A program made the translations under genes and the position numbers. The notes below the pieces were generated by a model. The model was not told the origin of the DNA. It saw only the letters and a list, made by a program, of their open reading frames with translations, and searched no databases. From assembly GCA_001822675.1 (NCBI GenBank), contig MHRY01000044.1:1-26569 (forward strand): DNA of 26,569 nucleotides. Reading direction: 5' to 3'. Shown here one piece after another: positions 1 to 26,448 of the stretch. Source of the stretch: Candidatus Taylorbacteria bacterium RIFCSPLOWO2_01_FULL_45_34b. Lineage in GTDB: Bacteria > Patescibacteriota > Minisyncoccia > Phycocordibacterales > DSPV01. The number at the start of each line of letters is the position of its first letter. Positions within the stretch are counted from its first letter, which is position 1.

Positions 1-80
1 TCTCGCTTTGTGTTTTACCGAGGCGGAGCCTCGGGGAAGTGTTTTTTGATGAGCAGTCAGTTTTTGGCTCGAAGCCAATT
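1..80 (+). repeat. Copy 1 (5'-truncated by the window edge) of a ~105-bp three-hairpin repeat family, R1
   Basis: ctcgctttgtgtttt + ccgaggcggagcctcgggg hairpin + T-run + gtcagtttttggctcgaagccaatt hairpin. Near-identical to 982-1100 and 2066-2170. Confidence 0.7.
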
Positions 81-303
81 TACAGAGGGTTCTTACTTGT
101 CTTTCTGTGGGTACAACTTGCAGGAAACGACAATCTTTCCTCCCTTGAAAACCCCTCAACCGATGGGTTTTCTCGTCTCGACCGGTTGATGAGCGACGCA
201 TGGCGATTACAACTTTTCTGCGAGTGTCAGGGTTGCGAAATTAAGTCGGAACGGGAGTGCTCTCTGGGGTGCTTTTCATTGGGGAGTATGATACAATCGG
301 GAA

Positions 304-3866: not shown

Positions 3867-3897
3867 ACTTTTTTCCTTTCTGGTATTTCTGAATTGG

Positions 3898-3912
3898 CTA
3901 GGTTGAACCTCG
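3898..3912. repeat. REP-like palindrome (aggttgaacct core)
   Basis: ctaGGTTGAACCtcg. The same core occurs at 4405-4417 with shared flank ccatcttt. Confidence 0.55.
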
Positions 3913-3988
3913 CCATCTTTTCTTTTTGCTGACTGACTTTCTCCAAAACAAATTGTCAAAGTTCCAACTCTGACAGAACAAAGCCCAT

Positions 3989-4005: not shown

Positions 4006-4209
4006 AGTAAGACTAACTGAATCTACGAAAAGGTTAGCACGGTTTTATATAAAAGTCAATGGATTGGTTTATACCAAAAAACGCTTCTGTAGAGCCACTT
4101 TTATCCAGCCTAGTTTTTTGGTGATTCTGTTCATAACCCGCGTATTTCTCGCCGCACCATATGGCCCAATTTAACAAACCAATATAAAAAGTTTATCGAG
4201 GACTTATTT

Positions 4210-4226: not shown

Positions 4227-4250
4227 GTTTTACTTTGAAAGTGTTAGGTT

Positions 4251-4273
4251 ATGTCAAGGTTTAACCTTGACAT
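4251..4273. repeat. REP-like 23-bp palindrome ATGTCAAGGTTTAACCTTGACAT
   Basis: 11-bp perfect arms. Exact reverse-complement copy at 15474-15496. Confidence 0.75.
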
Positions 4274-4312
4274 ACTTTGTCATTTCCAGACACTTAATTT
4301 AGAGTTGTATTT

Positions 4313-4388: not shown

Positions 4389-4404
4389 ATTTTTGTAAAA
4401 TGGC

Positions 4405-4417
4405 GAGGTTGAACCTC
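4405..4417. repeat. REP-like palindrome GAGGTTGAACCTC
   Basis: 6-bp arms. The right flank catcatctttcc matches the flank of the 3898 copy. Confidence 0.55.
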
Positions 4418-4492
4418 ATCATCTTTCCGTGTTGTTTTATGTTTAAAAAGAAAGCCAACCGGATGGGTTGGCTTTCGGGCGAAGGGAAGAAC

Positions 4493-4861
4493 TTAGACAG
4501 CGATTTCCGCTCGGCGTGGCTTTTTGGCCACTTTTTCGAGCAGAGTCCTCACCTCTTGGAAGGTGAAGGGTTTGAGGAGGGGAATTGCTCCCACGGATGC
4601 GGCTTTTGCCGCCAAGTTCTCTGTTCTTCCGGACATGAGCACTTTGGGGATTTTCGGCCCCACTACTTTGAGAACGGTGAGCCCTTCATCAAGGCTTGGA
4701 ATATCGCAGTCGGAGATGACTAAATCCAGTCCTCCTTCCGCGATTTTTTCTTGTCCTTCCATGCCGTCTGCGGCCAGAATTGTCTCGTGCCCGAGCATTT
4801 GCAGGAAGTCTCCGAGAAGTTCCCGGATGTCGCCTTCGTCTTCAATTAATAGCACTTTCAT
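4493..4861 (-). CDS. Single-domain (CheY-like) response regulator receiver protein
   Basis: 122 aa. KVLLIEDE acidic pocket, DLVISDCDIP phospho-acceptor Asp, KVLMSG and LLKPF conserved Thr/Lys positions. No output domain and no adjacent kinase. Confidence 0.85.
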   Translation of the reverse strand: MKVLLIEDEGDIRELLGDFLQMLGHETILAADGMEGQEKIAEGGLDLVISDCDIPSLDEGLTVLKVVGPKIPKVLMSGRTENLAAKAASVGAIPLLKPFTFQEVRTLLEKVAKKPRRAEIAV

Positions 4862-4924
4862 TACTGTTTAGTCTCACTTTCCGCCGATCTAAAAATAGAC
4901 TAATATACTCGACACCATCTGTCA

Positions 4925-4962
4925 ATACATCTAATTTACGCGGTCGCGTAAATTAGATGTAT
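4925..4962. promoter_or_regulatory. Perfect 18+18 bp inverted repeat (2-bp spacer), candidate operator or hairpin upstream of the response-regulator gene
   Basis: atacatctaatttacgcg-gt-cgcgtaaattagatgtat. Lies 64-101 bp upstream of the RR start and abuts a TTGACA-like hexamer on the minus strand. Confidence 0.5.
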
Positions 4963-5154
4963 GTAAGAAAAAGGCTCCAATTTGTTTGTGGGCGGGAGAG
5001 GAGTTTTGATTCTTACAGAATCTGTACAGTTTTCATATTTTCTCACGAAAATAACCGCTCGAAAATATGTTCAAACTTTTCAAGTCTTCTCACATAAGCC
5101 AAGCAGTTGGCGTGCTCCTGCCCACAAAATATATTCGCGAGGCTCATTATTTTG

Positions 5155-5236
5155 TGGGCAGGGGGAGACTCGAACTCCCATGGATTACTCCACTAGTTCC
5201 TAAGACTAGCGCGGCTACCAGTTACGCCACCTGCCC
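5155..5236 (-). tRNA. tRNA-Leu (anticodon TAG), type II with a long variable arm
   Basis: Minus-strand read GGGCAGG..CTAGT-CTTAGGA-ACTAG..TGGAGTAATCCAT..GGGAG-TTCGAGT-CTCCC-CCTGCCC-A. 7-bp acceptor and T-loop are intact. CCA is not encoded. Confidence 0.85.
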
Positions 5237-6832: not shown

Positions 6833-7270
6833 GCGGAGAATATGATAGCATGTTTTCTTGTCATGCCAGCTACAACTTTTTCGATTTGAAAAGTCGCAGC
6901 CCCCGCCTCCTTACGCTTCGCTCCAGTCCGGCTCGGACATTGTGAAAAAGTATTGTCGTCACGAGTTACTAAGTATTTTGCTTCGACAACTCGCAAAATA
7001 CTAAGTGCTCGCGACCCCGCCTTGCCCGTTTTTGTTGGTACAAAAACATGGCTGCGGCTCGGACAAGATAGAAAAGTCTCAAGCAGTTGAGATTTTTCTA
7101 TCTTGTCCGCCCACCTGGATTCGGCCGCGACTCAAACCTCGCCGCCGCTCGGTTTGGTCTGGCCACCGCCTCGCGATTTTTGCTACTGCAAAAATATCGC
7201 TCCGGCGTTCGAATCCAGACACCCCGCAAGCAGTTGCGGGGTTGTGGGCGGCCAATATTCAGAAATATTG

Positions 7271-7342
7271 TCCGCCCACCTGGATTCGAACCAGGGACCT
7301 TACGCTTAAGAGGCGTTTGCTCTACCAACTGAGCTATGGGCG
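7271..7342 (-). tRNA. tRNA-Lys (anticodon CTT)
   Basis: Minus-strand read CCGCCCA-TA-GCTC-AGTTGGTA-GAGC-A-AACGC-CTCTTAA-GCGTA-AGGTC-CCTGG-TTCGAAT-CCAGG-TGGGCGG-A. Canonical cloverleaf. CCA is not encoded. Confidence 0.85.
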
Positions 7343-7451
7343 GAATTCTTATGTAGCCCATAGAGAAGTCCTAACTGCTTGCCCCGTAGTGAGCTTGCTC
7401 TACTACTGGGGAGCTATGGGCGGATTTGGAAAGTGTAAGATGAAAAATACA

Positions 7452-7604
7452 AAGTGTAAAGGTTTGGCCAAGCTCTCAAATGTTGTGCTGACGCCTCATA
7501 TTGCTTCCGGAACAATCGTCGCGAGGGAAGAAATGGCTCACATGGCGGCGGAGAACCTCATCGTCTTTTTTGAGGGTAAGGTGCCGCCAAATATAGTAAA
7601 GTAG
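7452..7604 (+). pseudogene. C-terminal remnant (~50 aa) of a D-isomer-specific 2-hydroxyacid dehydrogenase
   Basis: LAKLSNVVLTPHIASGTIVAREEMAHMAAENLIVFFEGKVPPNIV matches the conserved C-terminus of the D-2-hydroxyacid dehydrogenase family. No catalytic or NAD-binding domain lies upstream; the upstream DNA is tRNA-derived debris. Confidence 0.5.
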
Positions 7605-10734: not shown

Positions 10735-10751
10735 ACGAGGTCGAACCTCGT
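10735..10751. repeat. REP hairpin ACGAGGTCGAACCTCGT (outer, left of the RAYT element)
   Basis: 7-bp stem with a CGA loop. Confidence 0.7.
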
Positions 10752-10772: not shown

Positions 10773-10811
10773 TTATACCATAAAAAATCTCTCTACAAGG
10801 TTCGACCTCGT
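10773..10811 (+). repeat. Left flank module of the RAYT gene: 15-nt direct repeat ATTATACCATAAAAA + 7 nt + REP hairpin ACAAGGTTCGACCTCGT
   Basis: The same module (attataccataaaaa-N7-cgaggtcgaacctcg) recurs at 11478-11515 on the other side of the gene, in the same orientation. Confidence 0.75.
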
Positions 10812-11467
10812 TTTTCGTTGTAATGAAGCCAATCCCGTATTGTTGTCTCAAAATCTGCCACCGTTTCAAAATATCCTGGGAAAGCCTTGCGTTCAAGAAT
10901 AACTTTTTCCGGCCTGTCCACTAAAAGAAAGTCCTGATAACTTGAGTAGGAGTAGTTTTTAAGGAAGGAAAGGGCCTTCTTTTTATTCACGATGCCCGTT
11001 TCTTTCCACGTAGATTCAATCAGTTTGATTGGGTTTAGGTGGATATACGAAAATAAATATTTCATGTATTCGTCATTATCTGCGTATTCAGCTTTAAATT
11101 TTCCTTGGAAAAGTGCTCCCGTGCGTTCCTCTTTTGTATTAAAATACATAGTATAGGCTGTGGAGAGTTTTTGCATAAATTTACTGATTCCGCCTTCCAT
11201 TTTCTCCCGTACAAGAAGGTGGAAATGATTTGGCATACAACAGTATGTTCCTATATCAATAATAGTTTTTTCTCGGTCTTGGCCGAGCATAGAATTGAGT
11301 GACCAATCAGAGTTGGTAATATGAACCGGGTTTGTACTATTGCACATATAAAGAAGTCCGATAAAACGTTTGTAATCACGATCAGCATTAAAAATTTTTC
11401 TTTTGTCCGTGCCTCTGTTATAGACATGGTAGTATCCATCTATAGAGATTTCAATATTTCTGGTCAT
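10793..11467 (-). CDS. REP-associated tyrosine transposase (RAYT; IS200-like Y1 HUH transposase family)
   Basis: 224 aa. YHVYNRG ... CMPNHFHLLV (HuH) ... GALFQGKFKA ... YIHLNPIK ... YSYSSYQDF (catalytic Tyr region). The motif order and spacing match the RAYT/TnpA_REP branch rather than the short IS200 TnpA. Flanked on both sides by REP hairpins. Confidence 0.85.
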   Translation of the reverse strand: MTRNIEISIDGYYHVYNRGTDKRKIFNADRDYKRFIGLLYMCNSTNPVHITNSDWSLNSMLGQDREKTIIDIGTYCCMPNHFHLLVREKMEGGISKFMQKLSTAYTMYFNTKEERTGALFQGKFKAEYADNDEYMKYLFSYIHLNPIKLIESTWKETGIVNKKKALSFLKNYSYSSYQDFLLVDRPEKVILERKAFPGYFETVADFETTIRDWLHYNEKRGRTL

Positions 11468-15473: not shown

Positions 15474-15496
15474 ATGTCAAGGTTAAACCTTGACAT
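15474..15496. repeat. REP-like 23-bp palindrome ATGTCAAGGTTAAACCTTGACAT
   Basis: Exact reverse complement of the copy at 4251-4273. Confidence 0.75.
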
Positions 15497-16572: not shown

Positions 16573-18531
16573 ATGAAAATTTCTCACAACTGGCTGCAAG
16601 ATTATTTTGATAAGGAATTACCCTCACCGGAAAAATTGGCAGAGCTTTTGAACGCGCACGTTTTTGAAGTTGAGGGCTTGGATAAAGTACACGAAGACAC
16701 AATTCTCGATGTAAAAGTGCTTCCAGACAGAGCTCATTACGCCCTGTCTCATTTTGGTATCGCCTATGAAGTTTCCGCTATCACTGGAATTCCGTTAAAA
16801 AAGGAAAGAGATTTAACTGTTACATTAGGGAAGCAGACTGCGCCGAAAGTCACAGTTGAGGACGAAAAAGTATGCCGCCGATACATGGCGCGGGTTGTCG
16901 AAGGAATCGGTAAAGCCGAAACACCGAAAATTATAAAGGAAAGACTTGCCGCTATCGGCCAACGTTCGATCAATCCAATTGTTGATCTTGCAAACTACAC
17001 GATGTTTGATGTCGGCCAGCCGCTTCACGCCTTTGATGCGGATAAAGTAAAAGGAGGAATCACAGTACGAAAAGCGAAAGCGGGTGAGAAAATTACCACG
17101 CTTGATAATAAGGACGTTGCTCTTTCCGCGGACATTTTGGTTATCGCGGATGATGTGGGCCCGCTTGCCATCGCGGGCATCAAGGGCGGCAAGCGGGCCG
17201 AAGTGGATTCAAACACAAAACGAATTATTTTAGAATCTGCCACGTTTGATCCAGTTTTGATTAGGAAAACGGCGACTGCTTTAAACATCAAAACCGATGC
17301 TTCAAAGCGGTTTGAAAATAACATGCCGCCAGCCGGCGCGTTTCTTGGCATACTGCATTTTTCAAAGCGACTGGAAGATATTTTTGGCGACTCGATTTCT
17401 TTTAGCCCCTTCACTGATATATATCCTGTTCACACGGAAGATAGAACCATAGAGATAGATCTTGATTTTATTCACGCCAAACTCGGGGCAAAAGTGTCGG
17501 AAAAAGAAGTGATTGAAATTCTTGGGCGACTTTATCTTAAAGCAGAAAATAAGAAGGGTAGGTTAGTTGTTACTGTTCCAGCATGGCGTCAGGATGTTGT
17601 CATTCCTGAGGATGCTGTCGAAGAAGTTGGACGGCTGTACGGCTATGAAAAAATAAAGCCAATCGTGCCGCCGAAAGTAAAAGGGGATTTGCCTCTTAAC
17701 AAAAATTTCTACTACGCGAACAAAATCAAACTCATTTTGGCAAACCACGGCTTTTCAGAAATTTACACTTCAACCTTTGATAAAGTGGGTGAGCGGGAAG
17801 TACTCTATCCTGTGGCGTCAGATAAAAATTTTTTGCGGACGGAATTGACAAAGTCAATGGCGAAGGCACTCGAGTTCAATCTTCGAAATACCGACCTCCT
17901 TAATCTCAATCAAATCAAGCTTTTTGAAATTGGTAAAATTTTCAAAGATGGGAAGGAGATTAATTCTTTAGTTGTTGGTATTACAAACACCAAAAGTATT
18001 AAAACTAAAGTAAATGATTTAATTCGAGATGCGCGTGAAATGCTCATAAAAGAGTTAGGAGCCGATGTTCAAACGGTTTGCACTATTGATGACAGTGGGG
18101 GACTGCTTCTTCTTGGAGGCCAGCAAATTGGTACCATAAATGCCATCGATGGGGTTATGGAAGTGAATCTTGACCTGTTTATTGCTTCTCTGCCCGATCC
18201 GAAAGGCTCAACCTTACAGACTGTAAGGTTGAGCCTTTCGAGTCTTGTTTACAGACCGTTTTCAAAGTACCCATTTATCGTTCGAGATGTTGCTATCTTT
18301 GTGCCGGAAAGTACAAAAGTGGTTGAAGTTCTTGCGGTAATCAAAAAAGAAACCAGTACGTTACTTGTAAATGATTATCTGTTCGACGAATTCAAAAAAG
18401 GTGACAAAATTTCTTACGCCTTCCGCCTCGTCTTTCAATCTTTCGAAAAAACACTGACCGATGATGAGGTGAATAGGATTATGAAAAAAGTAGCCGCGGC
18501 AGTCACAGCAATGGGATGGCAGGTGAGATAA
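16573..18531 (+). CDS. pheT: Phenylalanine--tRNA ligase beta subunit (short, ~650 aa)
   Basis: MKISHNWLQDYF start. B3/B4 and B5 domain-like regions and a C-terminal anticodon-binding-like FDEFKKGDKISYAFRLVFQ. Start lies 2 nt after the pheS stop. Confidence 0.88.
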   Translation: MKISHNWLQDYFDKELPSPEKLAELLNAHVFEVEGLDKVHEDTILDVKVLPDRAHYALSHFGIAYEVSAITGIPLKKERDLTVTLGKQTAPKVTVEDEKVCRRYMARVVEGIGKAETPKIIKERLAAIGQRSINPIVDLANYTMFDVGQPLHAFDADKVKGGITVRKAKAGEKITTLDNKDVALSADILVIADDVGPLAIAGIKGGKRAEVDSNTKRIILESATFDPVLIRKTATALNIKTDASKRFENNMPPAGAFLGILHFSKRLEDIFGDSISFSPFTDIYPVHTEDRTIEIDLDFIHAKLGAKVSEKEVIEILGRLYLKAENKKGRLVVTVPAWRQDVVIPEDAVEEVGRLYGYEKIKPIVPPKVKGDLPLNKNFYYANKIKLILANHGFSEIYTSTFDKVGEREVLYPVASDKNFLRTELTKSMAKALEFNLRNTDLLNLNQIKLFEIGKIFKDGKEINSLVVGITNTKSIKTKVNDLIRDAREMLIKELGADVQTVCTIDDSGGLLLLGGQQIGTINAIDGVMEVNLDLFIASLPDPKGSTLQTVRLSLSSLVYRPFSKYPFIVRDVAIFVPESTKVVEVLAVIKKETSTLLVNDYLFDEFKKGDKISYAFRLVFQSFEKTLTDDEVNRIMKKVAAAVTAMGWQVR

Positions 18532-18533
18532 AC

Positions 18534-18558
18534 AGAGCCGACTCTAGGAGTCGGCTCT
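18534..18558 (+). terminator. Strong hairpin after pheT (agagccgactc-tag-gagtcggctct)
   Basis: 11-bp perfect stem. No clean U-tract follows. Confidence 0.45.
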
Positions 18559-21105: not shown

Positions 21106-21208
21106 CATGACACCAATATATCCCGATTTCATTTACGAAATCGAGGATCCTCGGTTCGATAAATCGAATCGGGACGAATGAGTGCGAATAAGCACTAATG
21201 ACACGAAT

Positions 21209-21247
21209 AAAAAAGACGGCTCGCCGTGAAAGGGGGAGTCGTCTTTT
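21209..21247 (+). terminator. Bidirectional intrinsic-terminator-like hairpin after gyrB
   Basis: aaaaaagacggctc-gccgtgaaaggg-ggagtcgtctttt. A-run before and T-run after a ~10-bp stem. Confidence 0.55.
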
Positions 21248-21642
21248 GGGTGACCTTTCGAAGTTAGGCAAACTCTGGGATGAAGGGGAGATCTTTGCTG
21301 TCGATTCCCATGACTTGGGAAGCCGTGAAAGCTTGACCTCCCCCAAGCGCTTTGAGAGTTGTTTCTTTCGTGTGGTGTCCCTAGAGGACAAGGTACTCCG
21401 GATGTTTTGGGTGCTGACTTACCTCGGTCATAAGGTTGGTGGCAAACTTTCCCACTTCTGTTTGGTGCCATGTCCGACCTTTTCGGTGGAGAACGGTCAT
21501 TTTCAGTTCGTGGCGGTTCTTTTCGATCTGCATTCGCATCAAGTTCGTGGATTTTTTCTGGGTTTCTTGGTTTTGGTAGCCTCAACAGGCTGTTTCTTCT
21601 GAAGAAAGGCTAACATGAATATAAAGGTATATCAAGTAGAAT

Positions 21643-21676
21643 GAACCCCCGCTTCGCGAACGCGAAGCGGGGGTTC
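21643..21676 (+). terminator. Perfect 16-bp-stem palindromic terminator
   Basis: gaacccccgcttcgcg-aa-cgcgaagcgggggttc followed by atctttctttt. Lies between convergent transcription units. Confidence 0.7.
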
Positions 21677-21728
21677 ATCTTTCTTTTATACTTTATACTA
21701 ATACTTGATACGCTATACGTTCCTTGGT

Positions 21729-22826
21729 TTAGAAAATGACGCCGTTTATGGTGTATTTTACGATGTTGTTGTCGCGGGTTACGTCAGGAAGATATCCCGT
21801 TGGATCAATGTTTATAGTAAATATGTTGCCATTTTTGTTTTCGATTTTGTCGAAGCCAAGCGTGAATTCGATCCGGTCATTTGGCGCAAGTGCGCCTTGC
21901 GAATCGGACGTGAAAATATGATTAGGGAAGGTTGGGAGCACCGCATTGAAATACCAGTCCGAAGACGTTTTGTTTCCGAGGTTTATGACTTCAAAACGAA
22001 CCGCGATTCGATCGGTTGAATGAAGTGTCGTGGTCGACATAAATTCATTGGTAATTTTATCGATAACACCGACTTCAATAATCTTCGCGGCCAAATCCGG
22101 TTTGCCGGTTTCCGACGCTCCGGCAGTCGTTCCTGAAATCAAATACGTGTTTTCCGTTTTTGTTCCGGCTTTCGGATCAACCGGCGCGGGTTTGACTGCC
22201 ACAGCCCCTGTTTTTTTAGGGGGAGTGGTTGGTGTTGCTGATTTGGTTGCAGTCCCCGATGCTTTGGTTGTGCCCAAAATACCGTCGCGGCTGTTTGAAA
22301 GCGATTCATTGGCGACCATGATCATGGCAGAAGCAGAGAGTGGATTTTCCTCGGAGCCATTTTTTATAAAAGTAAGCGTAACCGGAATGCTTCCGTAGCG
22401 GTTTTTCTTTGAAGTAACGATGAAAGAAGCACTCGTGGCGTCATTTGGTAAAAGCAATTTTTCGTCGCATGCCAAGGTAGCGTTTTTGCCCCCGCTAGTT
22501 TCTTTTAGTTCAAGAACGATGCCGTCTGTGCATCCGTAGGTGAAAACGTATTCGCCCTCACCGCTTTTGTTTTCATGTTTCCATGAAAGAGTAATTGTTT
22601 GACCGGAAGAAACGCTCAAGTTTGGCACTTCAAGTATCAAAGTTTCTGCTCCCTTGAAAGTTTTGGTGAGAGAGATAACGGAAGCATACATATCATTTAG
22701 ATTTTTTGGGATACCCGCAAAATTGGTGCTGCCAATCCAGGCGCCGACACCAAGTATGACAAGGAGGGTGACGGTAACGCCTACCTTTGCAAGAGTGTTT
22801 CTTTTGGTTCCCGATATGTTTTCCAT
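21729..22826 (-). CDS. Hypothetical secreted/anchored surface protein with a Thr/Pro-rich linker and a C-terminal beta-rich (CARDB-like?) domain
   Basis: 365 aa. N-terminal TM/signal (VGVTVTLLVILGVGAWIG), a TATKSATPTTPPKKTGAVAVKPAPVDPK linker, and a C-terminal RFEVINLGNKTSSDWYFNAVL segment. Confidence 0.55.
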   Translation of the reverse strand: MENISGTKRNTLAKVGVTVTLLVILGVGAWIGSTNFAGIPKNLNDMYASVISLTKTFKGAETLILEVPNLSVSSGQTITLSWKHENKSGEGEYVFTYGCTDGIVLELKETSGGKNATLACDEKLLLPNDATSASFIVTSKKNRYGSIPVTLTFIKNGSEENPLSASAMIMVANESLSNSRDGILGTTKASGTATKSATPTTPPKKTGAVAVKPAPVDPKAGTKTENTYLISGTTAGASETGKPDLAAKIIEVGVIDKITNEFMSTTTLHSTDRIAVRFEVINLGNKTSSDWYFNAVLPTFPNHIFTSDSQGALAPNDRIEFTLGFDKIENKNGNIFTINIDPTGYLPDVTRDNNIVKYTINGVIF

Positions 22827-23718: not shown

Positions 23719-26358
23719 ATGATGCAGAATAATAACAAAAACATGAAAAAGATGACGTCCAGACTTTTTGGTTTTCGTTTTCCGATACTCGGACTTGTTC
23801 TGACTGCCGCCTTCTTTGGTTTCTCGAACAATGTTGCTTTGGCATGGAATCTTCAAGGATCTTGTTCTGTGGCGCCTGCTTCACCGAATATTGGCGAGAC
23901 TGTAACGTGGACGGCTACGCAGACATCTACCATGACGCCAAGCCAAGGTCATTATGAATATTCATGGAGCGGCACTGACGGACTAGCTGGCATCTCGAAC
24001 CCTGTTTCAAAAAGTTACGCGACTACTGGCACCAAAAATGCCACGGTGGTTATTATGCTTGTTTTAAATGCCGGTGGTCGTGAGAAGATTACCCGAAATT
24101 GTTTCACTGTTGTGAAAACTTCTCCACCACTGCCTGGTCAATGCAAACTTGAAATGACTAAGGAGGTTGATAAAGCAACTGCAACAGTTGGCGATGTGCT
24201 TACCTATACGCTTACTTTTAAAAATAGCGGAGACGCCGACTGCACTGGCGGCGGCGTGCGAATTCAGGATGTTGTAGATTCAGCGCTCACGTATCAAAGT
24301 GAAACTCGTAGCGGCAACGTTGATGTGGGATACAACAGCATTCCGCTTTACAGCGCCTCGACTCGGACGTTGAATTGGAATGGCAATGTGTTGACGCCGG
24401 GTGAGAGCGGTTCAATTTCTTGGAAGGGAAAGGTCAACGAACCTGCGGCTTGCGGGGTGTTCGATATTCCTAATAAAGCCCGAATCACCTCGGCAGAGTA
24501 TTCGCCAGCCGATCTCATGACGACCCCGAGCGTTTGGGTCGAGAGCAATACTGTTAAAACGACAATCACTAAGGATTGCCCGCTGCCACTAGAGCTTTCT
24601 GTCACATGCACTGCCAATCCTTCGGCTGTCCAGACTGGCGATGCTGTTACATGGAGTTCCACCGCTTCCGGCGGGGTTGGTTCGTATACATATAGTTGGA
24701 CAGGAGATGACGGTTTTTCTAGTACCGACCAAACTGATTCAAAATCGTACACGTCATCGGGTACTAAAAATGCCACAGTAACGGTTACCTCCAGTTCTGA
24801 AACTATTTCAAAAACCTGCACCACTTCCGTGGCGTCGCCCACGTCTTCACCCTCTCCGCTTTCGGGAAGTTGTGCTGTCAGCCCGACAGCTGTAGAAATC
24901 GGTCAGGAAGTTACCTGGAGCGCTAGCGCAACTGGCGGCACAGGTTCTTATACCTATTCATGGTCTGGTACTGATGGTTTGACTGGTTCGGACGCTTCCG
25001 TCAGCCGCTCCTATGCTTCATCAGGAACCAAGATGGGCAATGTCACTATTACTTCCGGATCGGAGTCAATAACTTCAAATGCTTGTTCTGTTGATATTAA
25101 ACCGTCTTCGACTTGCACGAGTAATTGCGGCGGAGGTGGAGGTGTGGGTGGCGGGGGTGGTTACAATCCGCCAACGGTGGTGCTTCTTAAAAAGGCCGAG
25201 AAACTGCCACTCGCATTCGTGTACTTAAGCCAAATTCCATACACTGGTTTTGGCGACAGTTTTAAAGTTATTGCTTTTATTCTCGGACTAATTATCTGGA
25301 GTATTTTAGTTGTATATCTTTTTAAGTCTGGTATCATTCTTCGGGTTATTGAGAGAATTCAAAAACGTTTAAAACGAGAGGAACCTAATCTCGTCAAAGA
25401 AGAAACACAAGTTCCGATTGATGAAAATAGTCTTATTACCGAGAGCCCAGATTATCAAAAATATATGGAAGAAGATTCCACAACCACATATAAGCATAGC
25501 AACCAATCGTACGCATATGCCGGTATTTCGGCAAACCCCTCTTTTATTCCGGACAATCTGCCCGGGGAAGACATTTCGCTTGAACCGACTGTGGTGGATG
25601 AGCGAAATATTCGCGAAGCGCTTTTGGCAAAAGCCCGCGAGCGAAAAACTCTTATCTCTGAAGACGCAGTCAAACTTCTGCTCCAATCTTTGTCGGGTAA
25701 TTACGCCAAGGCCGAAACGGCACTTACAAAAGTGATTGACGATGCCGAGACCAAGTATGTCAAAGAGGACGGTTGGATTTTACTCAATCGTGAAAAGATG
25801 GCGCTTCTTTTACCAACTCCTCATTTTTCTGTGAATTCTTCAAAAACAACGCCTCCAGCGCCAAATGGCATGTTTGTTCCGACCGCGCTTGAGCGAGAGA
25901 GTTATGCTTTGCCTCGTTTTTCGGATAAAGCTCCGGTTGCGAAGGTTGAAAATACTACAGCTCCGGTCCCTGCGCCTGTTTCCTACGCGCAGACTTCGAA
26001 TCATTCAAATAGCGCTCCTGTCTTTCTTTCAACATTGTCATTTATTCGGGCAATTGTTGCAAAGGATAGCCAGAAAGTATTTGCAGTACTCCGCACGCTT
26101 CGACAAGAAGGTAAAAATGTCGAAGACTTTATCAAATCCGTTATCTACGAACTTGATGAGGCGTATCGCGGACGCTTGGAAGAGGGAATCCGTGGTGGTA
26201 ATGTTGAACTTAAAACTGTTGTGTCAGCTTGGACGAACGATGATTTGGAAGAAGTAATTACGATTTTTCTTACCATCATTGATCAAAGTTACAAGAATTC
26301 TTTGACCGGCCTTAAGCTTGCGATCATGAGAATTTTGGATTTGAAGAAGCGAGGGTAA
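23719..26358 (+). CDS. Large cell-surface protein: signal peptide, three PKD-like ~75-aa repeats and a DUF11-like domain, Gly-run, IPYTG + TM segment, then a ~340-aa cytoplasmic tail
   Basis: Signal MKKMTSRLFGFRFPILGLVLTAAFFGFSNNVALA. Repeats are bounded by Cys with (T/V)TW ... YSWSG(T/D)DG ... SKSY ... GTKNATV. VGDVLTYTLTFKNSGDADCTG matches the DUF11-type fold. The membrane region is KLPLAFVYLSQIPYTGFGDSFKVIAFILGLIIWSILVVYLFKSG. Confidence 0.7.
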   Translation: MMQNNNKNMKKMTSRLFGFRFPILGLVLTAAFFGFSNNVALAWNLQGSCSVAPASPNIGETVTWTATQTSTMTPSQGHYEYSWSGTDGLAGISNPVSKSYATTGTKNATVVIMLVLNAGGREKITRNCFTVVKTSPPLPGQCKLEMTKEVDKATATVGDVLTYTLTFKNSGDADCTGGGVRIQDVVDSALTYQSETRSGNVDVGYNSIPLYSASTRTLNWNGNVLTPGESGSISWKGKVNEPAACGVFDIPNKARITSAEYSPADLMTTPSVWVESNTVKTTITKDCPLPLELSVTCTANPSAVQTGDAVTWSSTASGGVGSYTYSWTGDDGFSSTDQTDSKSYTSSGTKNATVTVTSSSETISKTCTTSVASPTSSPSPLSGSCAVSPTAVEIGQEVTWSASATGGTGSYTYSWSGTDGLTGSDASVSRSYASSGTKMGNVTITSGSESITSNACSVDIKPSSTCTSNCGGGGGVGGGGGYNPPTVVLLKKAEKLPLAFVYLSQIPYTGFGDSFKVIAFILGLIIWSILVVYLFKSGIILRVIERIQKRLKREEPNLVKEETQVPIDENSLITESPDYQKYMEEDSTTTYKHSNQSYAYAGISANPSFIPDNLPGEDISLEPTVVDERNIREALLAKARERKTLISEDAVKLLLQSLSGNYAKAETALTKVIDDAETKYVKEDGWILLNREKMALLLPTPHFSVNSSKTTPPAPNGMFVPTALERESYALPRFSDKAPVAKVENTTAPVPAPVSYAQTSNHSNSAPVFLSTLSFIRAIVAKDSQKVFAVLRTLRQEGKNVEDFIKSVIYELDEAYRGRLEEGIRGGNVELKTVVSAWTNDDLEEVITIFLTIIDQSYKNSLTGLKLAIMRILDLKKRG

Positions 26359-26412: not shown

Positions 26413-26448
26413 AAAATCCCCGCCGTCCTTTCGGACGGCGGGGATTTG
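26413..26448 (+). terminator. Intrinsic-terminator-like hairpin after the surface-protein gene
   Basis: aaaatccccgccgtcc-tttc-ggacggcggggatttg, a 13-bp GC-rich stem. Confidence 0.6.

What the first reader, a model, noticed from the sequence alone, without database searches (positions are those of the whole stretch)
4925..4962. Perfect 18+18 bp palindrome upstream of an orphan response regulator
atacatctaatttacgcg-gt-cgcgtaaattagatgtat is perfectly symmetric and far longer than chance. It sits about 65 bp upstream of the receiver-only response regulator and abuts a TTGACA-like element on the coding strand. It is unlike the REP family (no AGGT/ACCT core). It is a candidate operator for a dimeric regulator, or a strong RNA hairpin separating the tRNA-Leu and RR transcripts.
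Basis: seen in the sequence. Interest (0 to 1): 0.55.

Follow-up and report, generated by a model that had tools for sequence, protein, structure and literature searches.

The report
Lone perfect palindrome after tRNA-Leu
A real, perfectly symmetric 38-bp inverted repeat in a Candidatus Taylorbacteria (CPR) genome that most likely folds into a hairpin marking the border between the tRNA-Leu transcription unit and a response-regulator gene; it is one of several gene-end palindromes in this genome, not a demonstrated regulator-binding site.

Summary
Window 4925-4942 and 4945-4962 form a perfect 18+2+18 inverted repeat, far beyond chance and identical in every independent assembly examined. It lies 63 nt upstream of the receiver-only response regulator (RR, 4493..4861, minus strand), 191 nt downstream of tRNA-Leu(tag), and its last base is the first T of a TTGACA hexamer.

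No second copy was found in the held sequence or in three public collections that lack this organism. It does not belong to the window's REP-like (AGGTT/AACCT) repeats.

The window holds nine perfect palindromes (arm >=10) against 0.17 expected. Four of them sit at gene ends. One of those, between convergent genes, has the same 18+2+18 geometry and the same CGCG-NN-CGCG centre.

The closest relative (L012) keeps tRNA-Lys/SpeE-like/tRNA-Leu but has no RR. Two conserved anchors lie 22 nt apart there and about 900 nt apart here. So the palindrome sits at the edge of a lineage-specific segment carrying RR, next to what looks like a decayed copy of the ancestral tRNA-Leu terminator.

Best reading (0.4): a hairpin acting as a transcript boundary or insulator, though it has no U-tract. 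Rivals are an operator (0.17) and a neutral DNA-level palindrome (0.25). Interest is modest. The tRNA trailers nearby are the stranger feature.

The parts
4925..4962 (.). Perfect 18+2+18 inverted repeat (the finding). On the minus strand it reads AUACAUCUAAUUUACGCG-AC-CGCGUAAAUUAGAUGUAU. The arms are 33% G+C, with a CGCG clamp next to the loop.
4920..4925 (-). TTGACA, a perfect -35-type hexamer. Its first T is the last base of the palindrome.
   Evidence: read from the sequence. TTGACA-type -35 hexamers are called elsewhere in this genome.
4897..4902 (-). TAGTCT, the only -10 candidate at 17-nt spacing (3 of 6 matches, keeps T1, A2 and T6). This is a weak, putative RR promoter.
   Evidence: sequence. 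The promoter scan does not call it.
4493..4861 (-). Receiver-only response regulator gene (122 aa).
4450..4476 (-). The RR gene's own canonical intrinsic terminator: an 11-bp perfect stem, a 5-nt loop, then TTTTT.
4963..4983 (-). Linker AACAAATTGGAGCCTTTTTCTTAC between the last tRNA-Leu 3'-end copy and the palindrome. GGAGCC+TTTTTC resembles the right arm and T-run of L012's tRNA-Leu terminator (AGAGGTC+TTTTTTGG), so it is probably a decayed terminator copy (inference).
4984..5153 (-). Structured tRNA-Leu trailer unit. It contains an inverted copy of the tRNA 3' end (5117-5131), a small hairpin GCCAA-CTGC-TTGGC (5099-5112), conserved module M (5098-4993, about 70% identical to L012 4623-4726), and a direct imperfect copy of the tRNA 3' end (5000-4984).
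   Evidence: (I9)
5154..5236 (-). tRNA-Leu(tag) gene.
4034..4094 (-). Stretch homologous to L012's tRNA-Leu terminator T-run plus next-gene promoter (L012 4748-4807). It is the right-hand anchor that bounds the roughly 0.9-kb window-specific segment containing the palindrome and RR.
   Evidence: (local alignment score 30; best of 30 shuffles 19)

Best explanation
The palindrome is a single-copy, structure-type boundary element.

Position. tRNA-Leu, its roughly 170-nt structured trailer, the RR gene and the genes beyond all lie on the minus strand. The palindrome is the last element of the tRNA-Leu trailer region and the first element of a roughly 0.9-kb segment that the closest relative lacks. 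That segment holds the palindrome, the RR promoter, gene and terminator, and a REP cluster.

Proposed mechanism. The canonical terminator that ends the tRNA-Leu unit in the relative appears only as degenerate copies here. RNA polymerase coming from the tRNA promoter would therefore run into the palindrome. The transcript would fold into a 17-bp stem with a 4-nt loop, nucleated by the CGCG/CGCG clamp. This hairpin would stop or pause read-through, or give a stable processed end that resists 3'-exonucleases or is cut by RNase III. Either way it uncouples the RR gene from the highly expressed tRNA unit. The RR then starts from its own weak promoter, whose -35 begins at the foot of the stem.

Shown: the palindrome exists, is perfect, appears to be single-copy, and is stable. 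Also shown are its position relative to two conserved anchors and the existence of a class of similar gene-end palindromes in this genome.

Inferred: that it is transcribed, that it terminates or processes RNA, and that the segment was inserted here rather than deleted in the relative.
For: (1) The hairpin is strong on either strand: -23.6 and -25.6 kcal/mol, z = -7.2 and -8.4.

(2) The window has 9 perfect palindromes with arms >=10 and spacer <=6, against 0.17 in shuffles. Four are REP-like. Four sit at gene ends:
- the RR terminator at 4450-4476;
- 18534-18558, 3 nt after the pheT stop, with no T-run;
- 21641-21678, between convergent genes (gene calls);
- 26414-26447, after the gene ending at 26358, with no T-run on its strand.
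So perfect short-spacer hairpins, with or without a U-tract, are the usual gene-end punctuation here.

(3) 21641-21678 has the same 18+2+18 geometry and the same CGCG-NN-CGCG centre and looks like a terminator.

(4) Position. Module M of the trailer (window 5098-4993) is homologous to L012 4623-4726. In L012 it is followed 21 nt later by a canonical terminator (4747-4760 plus T-run) and then by a TTGACT-17-TAATAT promoter. In the window the palindrome starts 21 nt after the last tRNA 3'-end copy and is followed directly by TTGACA. The order hairpin-then-promoter is the same.

(5) The relative has no RR gene, yet it also carries a perfect 18+3+18 palindrome of unrelated sequence in its tRNA-Leu trailer. 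The long hairpin after tRNA-Lys is kept in both genomes with a different stem sequence. Structure rather than sequence is what recurs in these trailers.

(6) Published survey: perfect inverted repeats in bacteria are positioned relative to transcription start and end sites and are tied to intrinsic termination (PMC13155455).
Against: No U-tract follows the stem on either strand. The minus strand continues UGACAGAUGG and the plus strand GUAAGAAAAA; the T-run lies before the stem on the transcribed strand. The terminator scan does not call it. This genome does use canonical G+C-rich, U-tailed terminators, so the element is not a standard intrinsic terminator. The arms are only 33% G+C.

The spacer is 2 nt, so the innermost complementary pair cannot form in RNA. 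Its complementarity therefore points to a DNA-level origin or to duplex DNA recognition.

L012's own 18-bp palindrome is not at the orthologous position. It aligns with the small GCCAA-CTGC-TTGGC hairpin of the window. No orthologue of this particular palindrome exists, so there is no covariation test. No transcript data are available.
Confidence: 0.4

Rival explanations
1. Operator or activator site. A dimeric, or dimer-of-dimers, DNA-binding protein binds the duplex palindrome, centred about 53 bp upstream of the putative RR start site, and controls the weak RR promoter that abuts it.
For: The dyad symmetry is perfect and includes the innermost pair, which an RNA hairpin cannot use. The palindrome touches a perfect TTGACA -35 hexamer whose partner -10 is poor (TAGTCT), as in a factor-dependent promoter. 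It appears to be single-copy, as a dedicated operator would be.
Against: 18-bp perfect half-sites (38 bp in all) are far longer than known dimer operators, and selection for binding does not keep every base symmetric. No gene for a DNA-binding regulator is nearby, and the RR is receiver-only. No second site was found in about 32 kb of this genome. The promoter scan does not call the promoter. A palindrome with the same geometry and centre sits between convergent genes where no promoter is expected. Conservation cannot be tested: the RR has almost no detectable relatives and the nearest related locus lacks it.
Confidence: 0.17
2. Neutral or selfish DNA-level palindrome. It would be either a young fold-back or template-switch product made when the RR-bearing segment was inserted next to the tRNA-Leu terminator, or a single-copy palindromic mobile element. 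In both cases it has no regulatory role.
For: It lies within about 5-10 nt of the inferred left junction of a roughly 0.9-kb segment absent from the relative. The 36 of 36 symmetry and the 2-nt spacer are what a recent DNA-level inverted duplication gives. The genome is full of palindromic repeats, including a 41-bp one inside pheT, and carries a Y1 (IS200/RAYT-like) transposase. The neighbouring tRNA-Lys trailer shows a precise 165-bp indel between direct repeats among strains, so this kind of region is structurally plastic.
Against: No other copy or relative of the sequence was found. It is fixed and invariant in all 23 contigs of the species examined. It shares no core with the REP-like families. 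The direction of the event, insertion here or deletion in L012, is not established. Its position directly in front of a -35 hexamer and at a transcript boundary would be a coincidence.
Confidence: 0.25
3. An ordinary Rho-independent terminator of tRNA-Leu and nothing more.
For: It is a strong stem-loop downstream of a tRNA gene and upstream of the next promoter-like element.
Against: The defining U-tract is absent on both strands. The stem is A+T-rich and much longer than this genome's canonical terminators. About 170 nt of conserved structured trailer lies between the tRNA and the stem.
Confidence: 0.08

Closest known systems
Rho-independent (intrinsic) terminators, including U-tract-poor 'hairpin-only' gene-end stems
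   Same: A stable stem-loop at the end of a transcription unit, directly before the next promoter-like element. It has the same geometry as a terminator-like palindrome between convergent genes in the same window (21641-21678).
   Different: No U-tract on either strand. The arms are 33% G+C, the stem is 17-18 bp and the spacer only 2 nt. The terminator scan does not detect it.
REP/BIME-type repetitive extragenic palindromes mobilised by RAYT (Y1) transposases
   Same: An intergenic palindrome in a genome that carries a Y1_Tnp gene (10793..11467) and REP-like repeats.
   Different: Single copy in all sequence available. It lacks the AGGTT/AACCT core of the window's REP-like families, and it is perfect rather than imperfect.
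Palindromic operators of dimeric transcription factors (LacI-, TetR- or CRP-type sites)
   Same: Dyad symmetry next to a -35 hexamer upstream of a regulatory gene.
   Different: About twice the usual length and perfect over 36 bases. There is no cognate regulator gene, no second site, and no conservation evidence.
RNase III processing stems between co-transcribed RNAs (rRNA/tRNA operon spacers, phage T7 intergenic hairpins)
   Same: A long perfect duplex between a stable RNA gene and a downstream gene on the same strand.
   Different: The 17-18 bp stem is at the lower limit for RNase III. Neither co-transcription nor cleavage has been shown.
att-site duplications at tRNA 3' ends left by integrative elements (relevant to the surroundings, not to the palindrome itself)
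   Same: Direct copies of the tRNA 3' end lie 125-170 nt downstream of tRNA-Lys and tRNA-Leu, and one unit is present or absent among strains.
   Different: The units are only 125-165 nt and have no integrase. They also carry an inverted copy of the same tRNA end, and they share conserved hairpin modules between different tRNAs.

Membership tests
Rho-independent terminator | Stable stem-loop | tested here: met
   17-bp stem, -23.6 kcal/mol, z = -7.2. However, it is only 33% G+C.
Rho-independent terminator | U-rich tract immediately 3' of the stem on the transcribed strand | tested here: not met
   The minus strand continues UGACAGAUGG and the plus strand GUAAGAAAAA. The terminator scan does not report it.
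Rho-independent terminator | Located at the 3' end of a transcription unit | tested here: inconclusive
   It lies after the conserved tRNA-Leu trailer and before a -35-like hexamer. In L012 a canonical terminator sits at a similar offset. No transcript ends are known.
REP/BIME (RAYT-associated) | Many copies per genome sharing a conserved palindromic core | tested here: not met
   There is one copy in the window at up to 3 mismatches and one per contig in 10 contigs. No low-stringency match was found elsewhere in the window or in related loci. Only about 32 kb of this genome was available. The public collections scanned do not hold this organism.
REP/BIME (RAYT-associated) | Shares the family core with the REPs flanking the Y1 transposase gene | tested here: not met
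   The window's REP-like families have an AGGTT/AACCT core (families D2, D3, D6). The palindrome has none.
Transcription-factor operator | Dyad symmetry overlapping or adjacent to a functional promoter | tested here: inconclusive
   The symmetry is perfect and TTGACA abuts it. The best -10 is TAGTCT (3 of 6) and the scan calls no promoter.
Transcription-factor operator | Conserved sequence at orthologous promoters, or further sites (a regulon) | tested here: inconclusive
   No further site was found in the held sequence. RR orthologues with genomic context are unavailable, and the nearest relative lacks RR.
Transcription-factor operator | A cognate DNA-binding protein | not testable with these tools
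   The RR is receiver-only. No regulator gene is adjacent. Binding needs an experiment.
RNase III processing stem | Roughly 20 bp or more of nearly perfect dsRNA within a precursor transcript | tested here: inconclusive
   The stem is 17-18 bp and perfect. Co-transcription with tRNA-Leu has not been shown.

The most novel reading that the evidence does not exclude
The palindrome is the terminal recognition or recombination structure of a small gene cassette, made up of the RR gene with its own promoter and terminator, that inserted into the tRNA-Leu terminator. Nearby are 125-165-nt units that carry both an inverted and a direct copy of the tRNA's last 20 or so nucleotides. These units occur after several different tRNAs in three related genomes, and one is present or absent among strains. 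Taken together, this would point to an undescribed insertion or duplication mechanism that targets tRNA-gene 3' ends and terminators in Parcubacteria.
Probability: 0.08. Interest if true: 0.7.

Novelty: new member of a known kind. Interest (0 to 1): 0.3.

Why it matters
The palindrome by itself matters little. It is probably one more gene-end or boundary hairpin, although it shows that this Candidatus Taylorbacteria genome punctuates transcription units with unusually long, perfect, short-spacer palindromes that often lack a U-tract. That bears on how terminators should be predicted in CPR bacteria, where nothing has been mapped experimentally.

If it were an operator, it would give a handle on the regulation of an orphan receiver protein in an uncultivated lineage.

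The context is the more valuable lead. tRNA genes in this clade are followed by structured trailers that are complementary to the tRNA's own 3' end and that end in a copy of that end. I found no Rfam family or paper describing such trailers.

Tried and rejected
- **Genome-wide copy search.** The 18-nt half-site gave no hit in genome contigs or viral contigs. In metagenome contigs it gave one isolated half-site in unrelated DNA, with no palindrome. These collections do not contain this organism: even the known locus was not returned. The regulon and repeat-family tests therefore remain open beyond about 32 kb.
- **Orthologous loci.** The SpeE-like protein has no relative in GTDB representatives. 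RR has essentially no detectable homologues by word-indexed search, and the 94% variant has no contig on record. Relatives of SpeE-like at 64-67% and 49% identity (L015, L016, L017) and of Band_7 at 54% (L038) lack the tRNA-Leu/RR context. Only L012-L014 keep partial synteny.
- **Presence/absence polymorphism of the RR segment.** None was found in the 23 contigs read.
- **Rfam.** Only the tRNAs matched, at the gathering threshold and at E<=10.
- **Phage records.** The trailer has no match.
- **Viral scan with the conserved trailer motif GTACAGANNCTGTAAGNNTC.** It gave three hits. All look like chance, and one overlaps the antisense strand of a tRNA-Trp.
- **Homology between the tRNA-Leu and tRNA-Lys trailers of the window.** A global alignment showed none.
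- **A further downstream copy of the tRNA-Leu 3' end that would bound a larger island.** None was found.
- **Idea that the 7005..7604 ORF is a dehydrogenase remnant.** It has no Pfam support and was dropped.
- **Extending the genome sample past the window's right end.** All contigs stop about 230 nt beyond it.
- **Literature searches for CPR tRNA trailers or palindromes.** Nothing specific turned up.

Full report
**Observation**

Window 4925-4942 (ATACATCTAATTTACGCG) and 4945-4962 are exact reverse complements separated by GT. With up to three mismatches allowed, these two arms are the only matches in the 26.6-kb window. Shuffles expect 0.01, and none of 100 gave two.

The response regulator (RR) is on the minus strand at 4493..4861. 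It is 122 aa and its only Pfam hit is Response_reg, so it has no output domain. tRNA-Leu(tag) is also on the minus strand, at 5154..5236. On that strand the order is:
- tRNA-Leu;
- 191 nt of intergenic sequence;
- the palindrome;
- 63 nt;
- the RR ATG.

TTGACA occupies 4925..4920 on the minus strand and shares its first T with the palindrome. As RNA the element folds into a 17-bp stem with a 4-nt loop. The energy is -23.6 kcal/mol on the minus strand and -25.6 on the plus strand, with z = -7.2 and -8.4.

**Source and reality**

The exact RR protein is found on more than 22 contigs from Rifle aquifer metagenomes and on NCBI MAGs named Candidatus Taylorbacteria, which belong to the Parcubacteria/CPR. 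Ten contigs from different samples and two assemblers are 99.7-100% identical to the window and carry the palindrome unchanged, once each. It is therefore not an assembly artefact. These strains are too similar to say anything about selection.

**Copies elsewhere**

No other copy or degenerate relative exists in the window or in the extra 5.5 kb of this genome that I could reach. The half-site is absent from the GTDB representative genomes and from IMG/VR. In the JGI metagenome collection it occurs once, as an isolated half-site in unrelated DNA. Those collections evidently do not contain this organism, because even the known locus was not returned. The genome-wide question is therefore answered for only about 4% of a CPR-sized genome. 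The palindrome shares nothing with the window's REP-like families, whose core is AGGTT/AACCT, and no Rfam family matches the region.

**The class it belongs to**

The window contains nine perfect palindromes with arms >=10 and spacer <=6. Shuffles give 0.17.
- Four are REP-like, with an AGGTT/AACCT core.
- Four lie at gene ends:
  - 4450-4476 is the RR gene's own canonical terminator (11-bp stem plus TTTTT).
  - 18534-18558 lies 3 nt after the pheT stop and has no T-run.
  - 21641-21678 lies between the convergent genes 21198..21602(+) and 21729..22826(-) (gene calls).
  - 26414-26447 follows the gene ending at 26358 and has no T-run on that strand.
- The ninth is the finding.

The palindrome at 21641-21678 is a striking twin. 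It is also perfect 18+2+18, also has a CGCG-NN-CGCG centre, and also begins and ends with AT. It is G+C-rich and followed by a T-run. Long, perfect, short-spacer hairpins are thus the usual punctuation of gene ends in this genome, with or without a U-tract. A recent survey of perfect inverted repeats in 118,019 genomes reports that bacterial repeats are positioned relative to gene starts and ends and links them to intrinsic termination (PMC13155455).

**Comparative evidence**

The RR has almost no detectable relatives. I therefore used the neighbouring 508-aa SpeE-like gene as the anchor. Its closest relative (66% identity; L012-L014) keeps the order tRNA-Lys(ctt), SpeE-like, tRNA-Leu(tag) but has no RR gene.

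Two stretches are homologous between the genomes:
- **Anchor 1.** A structured trailer module, 'module M', matches between window 5098-4993 and L012 4623-4726. Identity is about 70% over 110 nt, E 8e-10.
- **Anchor 2.** A terminator T-run plus promoter stretch matches between window 4094-4034 and L012 4748-4807. The local alignment score is 30, and the best of 30 shuffles is 19.

In L012 these anchors are 22 nt apart. Module M is followed by a canonical terminator (GCCTCTGTAGAGGT plus CTTTTTTGG) and then a TTGACT-17-TAATAT promoter.

In the window the anchors are about 900 nt apart. The intervening segment begins with a short linker (GGAGCCTTTTTCTTAC). Then come the palindrome, the RR promoter region, the RR gene with its terminator, and a cluster of REP-like repeats. 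The linker resembles the right arm and T-run of the L012 terminator, so it may be a decayed duplicate of it. That is an inference from a short similarity.

The palindrome therefore sits at the edge of a lineage-specific segment that carries RR. Whether this reflects an insertion here or a deletion in L012 is not settled. Its position matches where the relative ends its tRNA-Leu unit: in both genomes a hairpin is followed directly by a -35 hexamer. All 23 contigs of this species that carry the SpeE-like gene also carry RR at the same spacing, so the segment is fixed.

**What the relative says about sequence versus structure**

L012 also has a perfect 18+3+18 palindrome of unrelated sequence in its tRNA-Leu trailer, at 4599-4637. 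By alignment it corresponds to the small GCCAA-CTGC-TTGGC hairpin of the window, not to the finding.

The long hairpin after tRNA-Lys is orthologous in the two genomes. Both copies start in the tRNA end CGGACAA, both have a CUGC loop, and both are followed by AG(C/G)CGCAG. Their stem sequences differ. In these trailers structure is conserved while sequence is not. This favours hairpin function in general, but it is not a direct test of this palindrome.

**Mechanism**

The best-supported reading is a boundary hairpin. Polymerase leaving the strongly expressed tRNA-Leu unit meets no intact canonical terminator, because both terminator-like remnants are degenerate and neither is called by the scan. 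The 17-bp hairpin would then pause or terminate transcription, or provide a stable processed end. This would insulate RR, which has its own weak promoter (TTGACA-17-TAGTCT) starting at the foot of the stem.

Evidence against a plain terminator is clear:
- No U-tract follows the stem on either strand.
- The arms are 33% G+C.
- The genome does have canonical terminators.

The 2-nt spacer means the innermost complementary pair cannot form in RNA. The same holds for the twin at 21641 and for the 1-nt-spacer palindrome in pheT. This hints at a DNA-level origin, or at recognition of duplex DNA, for the perfect symmetry.

**Rivals**

- **Operator (0.17).** It would explain the perfect dyad and the contact with the -35 hexamer. 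However, the half-site is far too long, no regulator or second site is seen, the promoter is not called, and the twin lies where no promoter is expected.
- **Neutral DNA-level palindrome (0.25).** This would be a junction fold-back product or a single-copy palindromic element. It fits the location at the edge of the variable segment and the general plasticity of the region, but it makes the placement in front of a -35 hexamer a coincidence.
- **Plain intrinsic terminator (0.08).** It fails on its defining U-tract.

**Verdict**

The element is best filed as a new member of a known kind, a gene-end or boundary palindrome. It works like a terminator or insulator stem without meeting the membership test for an intrinsic terminator. 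Interest is modest (0.3).

The surrounding tRNA trailers are more unusual. Six of ten tRNA genes examined in three related genomes are followed by an inverted copy of their own last 20 or so nucleotides. That copy is split by a hairpin, most often with a CTGC loop. Conserved modules and a direct copy of the tRNA end follow. One such 165-nt unit after tRNA-Lys is precisely absent in one strain contig. I found no Rfam family or paper describing this.

Noticed in passing
window 4984-5153 and 7100-7269 (minus strand); L012 1123-1250, 2210-2460, 4377-4735; L015 8740-8860: Six of ten tRNA genes in three related CPR genomes are followed by a trailer holding an inverted copy of the tRNA's own last 20 or so nt (T-loop/T-stem 3' strand plus acceptor 3' strand). 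That copy is split by a small hairpin, most often with a CTGC loop. Conserved modules follow (AAAAGTTTGA...GAAAACTGTAC; GAnnC-TGTAA-GnnTC with covarying nn; GCGATATTT..GCAGTAGC..AAATCGCGAG), then a direct copy of the tRNA 3' end. Duplex energy of a tRNA end with its own trailer is -22 to -31 kcal/mol, against about -15 with other trailers. There is no Rfam match.
   Followed up: partly
window 7124-7264 compared with L004 7650-7720: The 165-nt unit between the two 24-nt direct copies of the tRNA-Lys 3' end (7265-7288 and 7100-7123) is precisely absent in contig L004. There tRNA-Lys runs straight into the 23-bp palindrome 7060-7109. L001 and L003 have N-gaps at this spot. This is either a real strain polymorphism or an assembly collapse of the repeat.
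   Followed up: partly
window 21641-21678: A perfect 18+2+18 palindrome, ATGAACCCCCGCTTCGCG-aa-CGCGAAGCGGGGGTTCAT, lies between convergent genes. It has the same arm length, spacer length, CGCG-NN-CGCG centre and AT ends as the finding, but it is G+C-rich and followed by a T-run. The shared geometry may be coincidence or may reflect a common way of formation.
   Followed up: partly
window 18200-18240: A perfect 20+1+20 palindrome with the REP-like AGGTT/AACCT core lies in frame inside the pheT (PheRS beta) coding sequence. It encodes ...DPKGSTLQTVRLSLSS... in a linker that has about 8 extra residues relative to Thermus thermophilus PheT. It looks like a palindromic element inserted in an essential gene, as known for Rickettsia palindromic elements.
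   Followed up: partly
window 10793-11467 (minus strand) with 10735-10751 and 10795-10811; also 790-812, 3894-3920, 4250-4274, 4400-4426, 15474-15496: A Y1_Tnp (IS200/RAYT-like) gene is flanked by REP-like hairpins (ACGAGGTCGAACCTCGT). Related AGGTT/AACCT-core palindromes are scattered through intergenic regions, including a cluster between RR and the Band_7 gene.
   Followed up: no
window 1-84, 816-1103, 2063-2173: A three-hairpin cassette (AAAGCGAGG..CTCGCTTT; CCCCGAGGC..GCCTCGGGG; TTGGCTCGAAGCCAA) is repeated in intergenic regions around the HicAB and MNT/HepT toxin-antitoxin genes (families D1, D4, D5, D7).
   Followed up: no
window 5099-5112, 7080-7089, 7227-7236; L012 4400-4423, 2470-2485: Hairpins in the tRNA trailers repeatedly carry the same CTGC tetraloop, often as CAA-CTGC-TTG. 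The finding's palindrome does not have this loop.
   Followed up: no
window right end (about 26570 onward): All contigs that carry the last gene of the window (23719..26358) stop about 230 nt beyond it, in 16 assemblies. This suggests a repeat or a strain-variable region just outside the window.
   Followed up: no
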